Positions 38,870 to 39,189 of a DNA stretch of 64,000 nt are shown here, piece by piece (position 1 is the stretch's first letter; each line of letters opens with the position of its first letter). The stretch is from Escherichia coli (lineage in GTDB: Bacteria; Pseudomonadota; Gammaproteobacteria; Enterobacterales; Enterobacteriaceae): the NCBI RefSeq assembly GCF_003018255.1, contig NZ_CP027440.1; one strand, written 5' to 3'. Below the pieces are notes generated by a model that ran no database searches, was not told the origin of the DNA, and saw only the letters and a program-made list of their open reading frames with translations. Position numbers and translations under genes: made by a program.

Positions 38870-38937
38870 ACTGAAAATCCTTCTGTTTTAGCTGTGTTTC
38901 TGAAACCGGGTTTTCGCCGTCAGTGAAGTACGCGCCG

Positions 38938-39189
38938 TCAGTACGGCGCGCTCTGCTGAAACTCACAAAGATGGATAATCTCATCCAATAGATCACTGAT
39001 ACGGCGATCCAGTGTTGTAATCAGCGCATCCACGCCATCCCGGTTGATTTCACCGGACGGGCTGAAACATACCCGGTAAACCGCCTGCAAAATGTCTTCG
39101 TCAGAGAGGGGGTGTTTCCCGGAGATATTTTTGTGTGCCGCCATGTCTGGATAACCCTGTTTAATGAAATAGTGGTGGTTATTTCCCAC
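38938..39189 (-). CDS. Small ORF with similarity to the TssC N-terminal helix region; possible tssC 5' remnant or small paralogue (start uncertain, alternative ATG at 39144)
   Basis: 83-aa ORF in the 309-bp gap between tssB and tssC; GVDALITTLDRRISDLLDEIIHLCEFQQ aligns with TssC AVDSMIADIDERISRQMDVIIHAPAFQQ. Confidence 0.35.
   Translation of the reverse strand: MGNNHHYFIKQGYPDMAAHKNISGKHPLSDEDILQAVYRVCFSPSGEINRDGVDALITTLDRRISDLLDEIIHLCEFQQSAPY

What the first reader, a model, noticed from the sequence alone, without database searches (positions are those of the whole stretch)
38870..39189. Extra small ORF between tssB and tssC that mimics the TssC N-terminal helix
tssB and tssC are normally adjacent, but here they are separated by 309 bp containing an 83-aa ORF. 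Its C-terminal half aligns with the conserved TssC N-terminal segment (about 12 of 30 identical residues), while the downstream tssC is full length with its own copy of the motif. It could be the scar of a recombination that replaced the tssC 5' end, or a small expressed paralogue that competes for TssB or ClpV binding.
Basis: inference. Interest (0 to 1): 0.55.

Follow-up and report, generated by a model that had tools for sequence, protein, structure and literature searches.

The report
Truncated tssC copy between sheath genes
Between the two sheath genes of this E. coli type VI secretion system lies a small gene, left by a partial duplication of the large sheath gene, that was kept as a coding sequence for a long time but is now decaying in many lineages and carries a premature stop here.

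Summary
On the minus strand, tssB (39679-39179) and a full-length tssC (38869-37394) are separated by 309 nt. The spacer holds an ORF whose conserved start is the ATG at 39144, not the GTG at 39189.

Its second half is homologous to TssC residues 57-102 (BLASTP E=1e-7; profile-profile E=2e-12; VipB 5mxn E=2e-7). That segment is the TssC helix that bundles with the TssB C-terminal helix. It is not the ClpV-binding helix.

The spacer is confined to one T6SS sub-clade (Escherichia, Salmonella, Citrobacter, Yokenella, Atlantibacter). The nearest relatives have tssB and tssC 14-24 nt apart. The ORF keeps the ancestral tssC position and a tssC-like ribosome site, so a partial tandem duplication is the likely origin.

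It evolved as coding sequence. A codon model gives omega 0.23 on the deep branches and 0.87 on recent ones (tssB control 0.095). At least six lineages have broken or deleted it.

The normal product is 70-74 aa. The window copy carries one derived base change (38938, TGG to TGA) that gives 68 aa; 38 of 5,426 complete E. coli genomes share it exactly.

No expression or functional data exist. The most likely reading is a weakly selected, dispensable TssC-derived mini-protein. The rival is a scar that is now neutral.

The parts
39179..39679 (-). tssB, contractile sheath small subunit (166 aa); first gene of the structural operon
   Evidence: ORF list; TIGR03358 E=1e-50; RefSeq annotation of the identical region.
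39145..39178 (-). 34-nt intergenic region between the tssB stop and the conserved ATG of the small ORF. It carries a weak SD-like CAGGG. It resembles the tssC ribosome-binding region and the tssB-tssC intergenic region of relatives that lack the spacer.
   Evidence: Evolves at about the neutral rate (p-distance 0.44-0.68 between lineages). Anti-SD pairing is -3.3 kcal/mol in E. coli, against -8.2 and -8.4 in the Salmonella-type and L008-type lineages. L015 'TCTGGCT...' matches the L012 intergenic region 'TTCTGGCTAAGAAGGATTTTAGT'.
38938..39144 (-). Small ORF as annotated by PGAP (68 aa + TGA; WP_000718847.1), a truncated tssC paralogue. The mechanical ORF reaches 39189 (GTG, 83 aa), but that start is not conserved.
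   Evidence: The ATG is conserved in all lineages except the decayed E. albertii type strain.
38941..39066 (-). Codons 27-68: the segment homologous to TssC residues 57-98, the helix that forms the domain-3 bundle with TssB.
   Evidence: hhalign E=2e-12; PDB profile hits to VipB/TssC; AF2 model has helix 35-73 with pLDDT 84-91 over 41-70; structural mapping from PMC5807055.
38938..38940 (-). Premature stop, codon 69 TGG to TGA (coding-strand G to A at 38938). This is the only difference from the intact allele across the 309-nt spacer.
   Evidence: window against strain elppa5, L025. The exact sequence is in 38 genomes; 236 others differ from it by about one base in the 71-nt query (98.6% in the sampled rows).
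38920..38937 (-). Former codons 70-74 (RRVLH) and the ancestral TGA stop of the 74-aa form; untranslated in this window.
   Evidence: Translation through the stop; the 74-aa alleles end ...WRRVLH.
38870..38919 (-). Conserved 50-nt leader and ribosome-binding region of tssC (…ACAGAAGGAUUUUCAGU-AUG).
   Evidence: p-distance 0.11-0.30 between lineages, against 0.35-0.55 elsewhere in the spacer. The proximal 17 nt match the outgroup tssB-tssC intergenic region. PMC13141884 notes AGGA/ANGGA motifs upstream of tssC.
37394..38869 (-). tssC, contractile sheath large subunit; full length (491 aa) with its own N-terminal region.
   Evidence: TIGR03355 2-473/473, E=1e-211.

Best explanation
The ORF is the upstream, truncated copy left by an ancient partial tandem duplication. 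The duplicated unit spanned the tssB-tssC intergenic region and roughly the first 105 codons of tssC. An internal loss of about 23 codons followed.

It lies inside the tssB operon with no promoter or terminator of its own, so it should be co-transcribed with the sheath genes (inferred). It encodes a 70-74 aa helix-loop-helix peptide. That peptide equals the part TssC contributes to sheath 'domain 3': a degenerate counterpart of the ClpV-binding helix, plus the well-conserved helix that forms a three-helix bundle with the C-terminal helix of TssB.

Its evolution shows it was kept as a translated, amino-acid-constrained gene during the divergence of the Escherichia, Salmonella/Citrobacter and a third lineage. 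The most likely reading is therefore a small accessory protein that binds the TssB helix, and possibly ClpV, and tunes sheath assembly or recycling.

Selection on it is weak and it is dispensable. It evolves almost neutrally within lineages and has been knocked out or deleted repeatedly. The copy in this window carries a derived nonsense mutation that removes the last six residues, including the conserved Trp.

Shown: homology, origin within this clade, coding-type constraint, repeated loss. Inferred: transcription, translation, and binding to TssB or ClpV.
For: - Homology.
- Structural meaning: in P. aeruginosa, TssC1 S66-M86, TssC1 E39-E54 and TssB1 D117-L133 form the domain-3 tri-helical bundle (PMC5807055). 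[quoted passage not shown] The AF2 model of the ORF has helices 15-27 and 35-73, mean pLDDT 76.
- Clade restriction: the spacer is present where TssB is at least 74% identical to the window (E. coli, E. albertii, Salmonella, Yokenella, C. youngae and metagenome loci). tssB and tssC are 14-24 nt apart in Superficieibacter, C. farmeri, E. cloacae complex, another Salmonella T6SS and L019.
- Ancestral position and tssC-like RBS.
- Coding constraint, site counts: among three deep lineages, invariant sites are 31/68, 30/68 and 17/68 at codon positions 1, 2 and 3 (Fisher p=0.006). Eight of 14 fully conserved residues use different synonymous codons, for example Leu CTG/TTG/TTA and Arg CGT/AGG. GC at position 1 is about equal to position 3, so composition does not explain this.
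- Coding constraint, codon model: GY94 maximum likelihood gives omega=0.49 against omega=1 (p=1.5e-4). Deep branches give 0.23 and recent branches 0.87 (p=0.001). The tssB control gives 0.095 with no deep/recent difference.
- Indels between intact lineages are 12 nt and 6 nt, so they preserve the frame.
- Chance of staying open: by substitutions alone it is 0.06-0.15 per deep lineage.
- No concerted evolution with the resident tssC: 0.50-0.54 nt identity to own and to foreign tssC alike.
- Ribosome site: anti-SD pairing -8.2 and -8.4 kcal/mol in two lineages, stronger than for tssC (-5.5).
- No sigma-70-like promoter or intrinsic terminator in the spacer.
- Intact ORFs are annotated in all 29 sampled full-length E. 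coli hits. One protein accession (WP_000123970.1) is shared by very different strains.
Against: - No transcript, ribosome-profiling, proteomic or mutant data were found for this ORF.
- The two E. coli allele classes differ by 18 nt. NG86 on the closely related window allele gives about 15 non-synonymous and 3 synonymous changes, omega about 1.5, which is indistinguishable from neutral.
- Recent branches overall have omega 0.87.
- Independent inactivations: E. albertii type strain (start lost, several indels), Yokenella (+1 frameshift), C. youngae (nonsense), L015 (frameshift plus nonsense), L020/L024 (frameshifts), L016/L017 (155-nt deletion, neighbouring tssB, tssC, tssE and tssF intact), and the window itself.
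- Helix-breaking or motif-hitting substitutions occur in otherwise intact copies: Leu to Pro in 'IAAPDQR', IIH to IDH, ITY or IIP.
- The SD is weak in E. coli (-3.3 kcal/mol).
- The N-terminal half is not significantly similar to the ClpV-binding helix (E=0.17).
- An AF2 model of a TssB-linker-ORF fusion was low confidence (pLDDT 46) and gives no support for an interface.
Confidence: 0.55

Rival explanations
1. Dead scar. The fragment is a non-functional remnant of the duplication (or of a recombination that replaced most of tssC) and does nothing today. Whatever constraint acted early has gone, and the ORF persists in E. coli only because too little time has passed.
For: - Near-neutral evolution on recent branches (omega 0.87; about 15 N to 3 S between the E. 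coli allele classes).
- At least six independent disruptions, including a clean deletion in a cluster whose neighbouring core genes are intact.
- Proline and motif substitutions in 'intact' copies.
- Weak SD in E. coli.
- Nonsense allele in the window.
- Relatives without the fragment have normal tssB-tssC adjacency.
Against: - Strict neutrality since the origin is rejected (LRT p=1.5e-4; deep omega 0.23).
- Codon-position asymmetry and synonymous codon changes at conserved residues.
- In-frame indels only between intact lineages.
- Open frames in three deep lineages, each improbable at 0.06-0.15 from substitutions alone.
- A parallel, simultaneous loss of constraint in all lineages is unparsimonious. 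Elevated omega on short recent branches is also what weak ongoing selection produces.
Confidence: 0.3
2. Translated or regulatory spacer. What matters is not the peptide but that ribosomes traverse the 300-nt gap, avoiding Rho-dependent polarity on tssC and the eleven downstream genes or delivering ribosomes to the conserved tssC leader. Alternatively the spacer carries RNA or DNA regulatory signals for tssC, such as CsrA binding or an internal promoter.
For: - The 50-nt leader before tssC is the most conserved part of the spacer (p-distance 0.11-0.30) and carries an A(N)GGA motif.
- The literature reports CsrA repression of tssC in EHEC, and conflicting claims on whether tssB and tssC are one operon (PMC13141884 citing Wang 2017 and Kim 2022).
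- The frame is kept open while many amino acids change.
- Single-sequence RNA fold z-score is -2.5.
Against: - Amino-acid-level constraint on deep branches (omega 0.23) is not expected if only translation matters.
- No Rfam match.
- The consensus RNA structure is weak, with a covariation term of only -1.9 kcal/mol.
- No sigma-70-like promoter in the spacer.
- Lineages with frameshifted ORFs or a 137-nt spacer keep the rest of the operon.
Confidence: 0.12
3. Chance ORF. The similarity to TssC is coincidental and the ORF is random open frame in an intergenic region.
For: The ORF is short, has no Pfam or NCBIfam hit above threshold, and is labelled 'hypothetical protein' in annotation.
Against: Pairwise E=1e-7, profile-profile E=2e-12, PDB profile E=2e-7, with collinear position and conserved W/FQQ/IIH landmarks. 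The region is homologous in five genera.
Confidence: 0.01

Closest known systems
TssC/VipB N-terminal region (sheath domain 3: ClpV-binding helix plus the helix that bundles with the TssB C-terminal helix)
   Same: Significant sequence homology over 46 residues (ORF 27-72 to TssC 57-102), including the landmarks D..I..(L/I)D.RI...(L/M)D.IIH...FQQ....WR. The ORF is predicted helical, collinear with TssC, encoded directly after tssB, and preceded by a tssC-like ribosome site.
   Different: Only 68-74 aa against 491. It lacks all of sheath domains 1 and 2 and the handshake strands, so it cannot be a sheath subunit. About 23 residues between the two helices are missing. The ClpV-binding helix counterpart is not significantly similar. 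Omega is 0.2-0.9 against 0.04-0.05 for tssC.
TagJ/HsiE1-type T6SS accessory proteins (small sheath-binding accessory components)
   Same: By analogy only: a small cluster-encoded, non-core protein that would act through a helix-helix contact with a sheath subunit and is present in only some T6SS lineages. This rests on my own knowledge and the title and abstract of PMC4239648.
   Different: No sequence relationship was tested or expected. TagJ is an independent fold, reported to bind TssB and ClpV. The present ORF is a fragment of TssC itself, and no interaction has been shown.
Gene remnants left by partial tandem duplication (truncated 5' paralogues, pseudogene fragments)
   Same: Truncated copy adjacent to the full-length parent. 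The duplicated ribosome site is retained. Frameshifts, nonsense mutations and deletions are frequent in different lineages.
   Different: The frame stayed open, and amino-acid change was constrained, over divergence at which synonymous sites of the neighbouring genes are saturated. A plain remnant would not show that.
Z0263 of E. coli O157:H7 EDL933 / WP_000123970.1 ('hypothetical protein') in the T6SS-2 island
   Same: Same locus. Z0262 is vipB/tssC (PMC12981562) and z0264 is tssB (PMC7216683), so by numbering Z0263 is this ORF (inference). It is listed among T6SS-associated genes in a virulence-gene screen (PMC10657854). JGI labels a homologue 'predicted component of type VI protein secretion system'.
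   Different: These are annotation labels only. No paper I could search describes its TssC origin, its evolution or a function.

Membership tests
TssC/VipB (TIGR03355; Pfam PF05943 VipB + PF18945 VipB_2), contractile sheath large subunit | Whole-protein match to the family model above the curated cut-off (271.5 bits) | tested here: not met
   13.8 bits, E=0.02, only model positions 44-76 of 473. Pfam VipB 12.4 bits, positions 1-26 of 301.
TssC/VipB (TIGR03355; Pfam PF05943 VipB + PF18945 VipB_2), contractile sheath large subunit | Homology of the N-terminal conserved helix region | tested here: met
   BLASTP E=1e-7; hhalign probability 97.7%, E=2e-12; PDB profile hits to VipB/TssC at E=2e-7.
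TssC/VipB (TIGR03355; Pfam PF05943 VipB + PF18945 VipB_2), contractile sheath large subunit | Presence of sheath domains 1 and 2 and the C-terminal gpW/gp25-like domain needed to polymerise | tested here: not met
   The ORF ends after 68-74 residues, whereas the resident TssC has 491.
TssC N-terminal ClpV-binding helix (VipB 15-28; EAEC TssC1 23-35) | Recognisable similarity of ORF residues about 13-25 to the TssC helix SLLDxIMAQTRI | tested here: inconclusive
   hhalign places lsDeaIxQav opposite SLLDxIMaQtRi in the collinear position, but E=0.17 and probability 0.4%. AF2 predicts a helix at 15-27.
TssC N-terminal ClpV-binding helix (VipB 15-28; EAEC TssC1 23-35) | Binding to the cognate ClpV N-domain | not testable with these tools
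   Needs a two-hybrid, MST or pull-down assay as in PMC5048182.
Functional protein-coding gene (as opposed to pseudogene fragment) | Non-synonymous rate below synonymous rate across the phylogeny | tested here: met
   Omega=0.49, LRT against omega=1 p=1.5e-4; deep branches 0.23. Position-3 excess p=0.006.
Functional protein-coding gene (as opposed to pseudogene fragment) | Reading frame maintained in all or nearly all carriers | tested here: not met
   Among lineages sampled without regard to the ORF, it is intact in E. coli, Salmonella L010/L011, L021/L022 and L023. It is broken or deleted in L004, L005, L006, L015, L016/L017 and L020/L024, and truncated in the window.
Functional protein-coding gene (as opposed to pseudogene fragment) | Evidence of transcription and translation | not testable with these tools
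   No data found in the searchable literature. The T6SS-2 of EHEC is H-NS-silenced in the laboratory (PMC13141884).
Partial tandem duplication remnant | Truncated copy adjacent to the parent, with duplicated upstream signals, absent from the nearest relatives | tested here: met
   The ORF occupies the ancestral tssC start position, 34 nt after tssB. The RBS regions are alike. Outgroups have 14-24 nt gaps. The exact duplication junctions could not be resolved.

The most novel reading that the evidence does not exclude
The ORF is a bona fide, still-functional T6SS accessory micro-protein: a free-standing copy of the TssC domain-3 helices. It would cap the C-terminal helix of TssB, or act as a decoy for the ClpV N-domain, and so set the rate of sheath polymerisation or recycling in the T6SS-2 lineage of Escherichia, Salmonella and Citrobacter. 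Natural knock-outs such as the one in this window would then be strain-level tuning of T6SS activity.
Probability: 0.25. Interest if true: 0.65.

Novelty: new variant of a known kind. Interest (0 to 1): 0.4.

Why it matters
If the peptide is made and binds TssB or ClpV, it would be a sheath regulator born from the sheath gene itself. It is present in more than 2,200 of 5,426 complete E. coli genomes, including O157:H7, and in Salmonella and Citrobacter. It would offer a simple handle (a 70-aa peptide) for modulating T6SS-2, a system that is hard to activate in the laboratory.

Even if it is only a decaying remnant, two things remain useful. It is a clean, datable example of a gene fragment that stayed under coding constraint long after a partial duplication. 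It also explains an odd 300-nt gap and a 'hypothetical protein' annotated in thousands of genomes.

The strongly conserved 50-nt tssC leader next to it may bear on the reported CsrA control of tssC and on the dispute over whether tssB and tssC form one operon.

Tried and rejected
- **RNA element.** No Rfam match. RNAalifold gave a weak consensus (-19.7 kcal/mol, covariation term -1.9). The single-sequence fold z-score was -2.5. Not pursued as the main explanation.
- **Internal promoter or terminator.** None found in the spacer by the consensus scan.
- **Gene conversion from the resident tssC as the source of the codon periodicity.** Rejected. The relic is 0.50-0.54 nt-identical to its own tssC and to other lineages' tssC alike.
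- **Base composition as the source of the periodicity.** Rejected. GC at position 1 is about equal to position 3, yet position 1 is as conserved as position 2.
- **Donor lineage among full-length TssC proteins.** An exhaustive phmmer search of 1.84 billion representatives with the 74-aa form found no full-length TssC at E<1e-3. It found only small homologues and repetitive, unrelated proteins.
- **Duplication junction.** Local alignment of the tssC leader against the tssB 3' end was significant in only one lineage (L015, 4/500 shuffles), and in a register that conflicts with another lineage. The junction is unresolved.
- **AF2 of a TssB-(G4S)5-ORF fusion with a paired and unpaired alignment.** Mean pLDDT 46, uninformative.
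- **Foldseek of the ORF model against PDB.** Only non-specific helical hits, E>2.
- **N-terminal half against the ClpV-binding helix.** Not significant.
- **Literature.** No paper describes the ORF.

Full report
**What is there.** The locus lies on the minus strand of the window.
- tssB runs 39679-39179 (166 aa; TIGR03358 E=1e-50).
- A full-length tssC runs 38869-37394 (491 aa; TIGR03355 positions 2-473 of 473).
- Downstream follow tssE, tssF, tssG, tagH, tssJ, tssK, tssL, clpV, vasI, tssA and tssM. hcp and vgrG are divergent upstream.

The window is identical over the 701-bp query (38700-39400) to E. coli JNE23-011, and the reference gene coordinates match the window's. The island is the T6SS-2 cluster next to tRNA-Asp, the same cluster as in O157:H7. 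The two sheath genes are separated by 309 nt (38870-39178).

**The similarity is real.**
- BLASTP of the ORF against the resident TssC gives 15/32 identities, E=1e-7.
- NCBIfam and Pfam place the match at the very start of the TssC/VipB models, below family thresholds.
- A profile of seven ORF homologues against a profile of nine TssC N-termini gives probability 97.7%, E=2e-12, aligning ORF 27-72 with TssC 57-102.
- The same profile finds solved VipB/TssC chains (5mxn E=1.8e-7; also 5urw, 3j9g, 5n8n).

According to the P. aeruginosa sheath structure, the matching TssC helix (S66-M86) forms the 'domain 3' three-helix bundle together with the TssC N-terminal helix (E39-E54) and the TssB C-terminal helix (D117-L133) (PMC5807055). 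The extreme N-terminal helix is the ClpV-binding element (PMC5048182). Its counterpart in the ORF lines up collinearly but is not significant on its own (E=0.17). AlphaFold2 with the seven-sequence alignment predicts helix 15-27, a loop, and helix 35-73 (mean pLDDT 76). The ORF therefore encodes essentially the TssC share of domain 3 and nothing else.

**True start and true length.** PGAP and all related lineages use the ATG at 39144. The common product is 74 aa in E. coli (…FQQSA(P/S)(Y/H)W(R/Q)RVLH) and 70 aa in Salmonella, Citrobacter and Atlantibacter. The conserved Trp aligns with W99 of TssC. The window copy is 68 aa. It differs from an intact allele (strain elppa5) at one base in the whole spacer, 38938, which turns TGG into TGA at codon 69. 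Exactly this sequence occurs in 38 complete E. coli genomes. Another 236 differ from it by about one base in the 71-nt query (98.6% identity in the sampled rows). The O157-type allele accounts for most of the remaining carriers among the 2,225 of 5,426 genomes that hold the locus.

**Distribution and origin.** I sampled relatives through TssB and through the conserved tssC leader, that is, without regard to the ORF.
- A homologous 278-317-nt spacer (137 nt in L016/L017 after a deletion) is present wherever TssB is at least 74% identical to the window. This covers E. coli, E. albertii, Salmonella enterica, Yokenella, Citrobacter youngae and several metagenome lineages.
- The next relatives have tssB and tssC 14-24 nt apart: Superficieibacter, C. 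farmeri, E. cloacae complex, another Salmonella T6SS and L019.
- Superficieibacter is about as close to E. coli as the Salmonella group is (TssC 90, 89 and 88%). The insertion therefore dates to the base of this clade, or was lost once.

The ORF starts 29-34 nt after tssB, where tssC starts in the outgroups. Its upstream region resembles both the tssC ribosome site and the outgroup intergenic region. Its motif MDEIIH…EFQQ is closer to Superficieibacter TssC (QMDEIIHASEFQQ) than to the resident QMDVIIHAPAFQQ. A partial tandem duplication of the intergenic region plus about 105 codons of tssC, followed by loss of about 23 codons between the two helices, fits best. The junctions themselves could not be resolved.

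**Is it a gene or a scar?** The evidence points both ways, and the split follows time depth.

Deep divergence points to a gene.
- Synonymous sites of tssB and tssC are saturated between the three main lineages (pS about 0.7), yet the ORF is still alignable.
- Between-lineage p-distances are 0.37, 0.34 and 0.54 at codon positions 1, 2 and 3. The non-coding 34 nt upstream give 0.48.
- In a trio of deep lineages, invariant sites number 31, 30 and 17 of 68 at positions 1, 2 and 3 (p=0.006). Eight of 14 fully conserved residues use different synonymous codons.
- A GY94 codon model that I implemented gives omega=0.49 (p=1.5e-4 against 1). A two-ratio model gives 0.23 on the three stem branches and 0.87 within lineages (p=0.001).
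- The same code gives 0.095 for tssB, with no significant deep/recent difference.
- Indels between intact lineages are 12 and 6 nt.
- Neither gene conversion from tssC nor base composition explains the pattern.
- Simulation gives 0.06-0.15 as the chance that one lineage stays open by substitutions alone.
- The Shine-Dalgarno pairing is good in two lineages (-8.2 and -8.4 kcal/mol) and weak in E. coli (-3.3).

Recent divergence points to decay.
- The two E. coli allele classes differ by 18 nt. NG86 on the window allele gives about 15 non-synonymous and 3 synonymous changes.
- 'Intact' copies carry a proline in the helix or changes in the IIH motif.
- The ORF is independently broken in the E. 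albertii type strain, Yokenella, C. youngae, L015 and L020/L024.
- It is deleted in L016/L017, where the neighbouring tssB, tssC, tssE and tssF remain intact, and truncated in the window.

This combination fits a dispensable gene under weak selection. In such a gene, slightly deleterious and null alleles linger at the tips of the tree. It fits somewhat less well a gene that lost its function recently and in parallel everywhere.

**Mechanism.** Shown:
- The ORF has no promoter or terminator of its own.
- It lies in what the latest experimental paper describes as a single polycistronic tssB operon (PMC13141884).

Inferred:
- It is co-transcribed with tssB and tssC and translated from its own ribosome site.
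- The helix-loop-helix product docks on the C-terminal helix of TssB as TssC domain 3 does, or offers a degenerate ClpV-binding helix. Either would modulate sheath assembly or recycling.

An attempt to model a TssB-linker-ORF fusion was uninformative (pLDDT 46).

Rivals:
- The fragment is now a neutral scar.
- What matters is translation across the gap, or the adjacent 50-nt tssC leader. That leader is the most conserved part of the spacer (p-distance 0.11-0.30). It carries the A(N)GGA motif discussed in connection with CsrA repression of tssC.

**Comparison with what is known.** The ORF is a homologue of the TssC N-terminal region but fails membership of the TssC family: 13.8 bits against a cut-off of 271.5, and no polymerisation domains. 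It is annotated only as 'hypothetical protein' (WP_000718847.1 here, WP_000123970.1 in O157:H7). By gene numbering it is probably Z0263 of EDL933. I found no publication describing its origin or function. In kind it is a partial-duplication-derived small paralogue inside a secretion-system operon. That makes it a new variant of a known kind, not a new class.

**Verdict.**
- The fragment is a truncated tssC copy that behaved as a constrained coding gene over deep time and is being lost repeatedly now.
- The copy in this window is a derived nonsense allele.
- Interest is moderate (0.4). It would rise to about 0.65 if the peptide is shown to be made and to bind TssB or ClpV.

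Noticed in passing
window 38870-38919 (- strand): The 50 nt upstream of the tssC start are much more conserved across lineages (p-distance 0.11-0.30) than the rest of the spacer. They contain ACAGAAGGAUUUUCAGU-AUG. PMC13141884 notes AGGA/ANGGA CsrA-type motifs upstream of tssC. It cites work reporting CsrA repression of tssC in EHEC, and a study claiming tssB and tssC are separate operons.
   Followed up: partly
window 38931-38950: GC-rich inverted repeat cgcgccgt-cagt-acggcgcg (8-bp stem, no T-run) overlaps the premature stop. The nonsense change at 38938 adds one base pair to the stem. The decamer ACTGACGGCG occurs twice, 18 nt apart, on the coding strand.
   Followed up: partly
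window 38968-38985 (ORF) and about 38597-38614 (tssC), - strand: The codons for MD.IIH (ATGGATGAGATTATCCAT in the ORF; ATGGATGTCATCATCCAT in tssC) are palindromic, because ATGGAT is the reverse complement of ATCCAT. This stretch is the most invariant part of the relic, even in broken copies. It may be a coding coincidence or a small hairpin.
   Followed up: partly
L002 3532-4923 (E. coli O157:H7 ATCC 43888): tssC of O157:H7 is annotated 463 aa, with a gap before tssE. This agrees with the CAG to TAG nonsense mutation in vipB (Z0262) described in PMC12981562.
   Followed up: partly
L027 1545-1922 (E. coli ATCC 8739): tssB is 5'-truncated and abuts an Rhs core-domain pseudogene. The small ORF and tssC are intact, so hcp, vgrG and the promoter region appear to have been replaced.
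   Followed up: no
L007 1767-2653: In this metagenome contig the T6SS cluster is cut after about codon 234 of tssC and joined to a YafT-family gene. The 70-aa small ORF upstream is still intact.
   Followed up: no
L016/L017 3005-3141: The spacer is reduced to 137 nt by a deletion of about 155 nt that removes almost the whole small ORF. The deletion keeps the ORF's first codons and the conserved tssC leader, and the neighbouring tssB, tssC, tssE and tssF look intact.
   Followed up: partly
window about 20223-21633 (- strand): A VasL-domain gene at the distal end of the T6SS island is annotated as frameshifted in the reference genome NZ_AP045067.1, whose gene coordinates match the window. A second hcp lies at 19778-20257.
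   Followed up: no
window 3349-8595 and 16740-16816: An rrn operon with tRNA-Ile, tRNA-Ala and tRNA-Asp. A second tRNA-Asp (aspV) lies at 16740-16816, next to the T6SS island, and looks like the island's insertion site.
   Followed up: no
window about 43300-62000 (L001 1432-11122): Downstream of vgrG lie an Rhs core protein, Rhs fragments, several ISAs1/ISEc1 transposase copies (one with an internal stop) and an IS1 fragment. This is a rearranged effector/immunity region.
   Followed up: no
L012 (Superficieibacter sp.) against window and L010: The spacer-less Superficieibacter cluster is as close to E. coli (TssC 90%, TssE 72%) as the spacer-bearing Salmonella group is (89%, 67-74%). The duplication was therefore either gained at the base of the E. 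coli and Salmonella lineages or lost once in Superficieibacter.
   Followed up: partly
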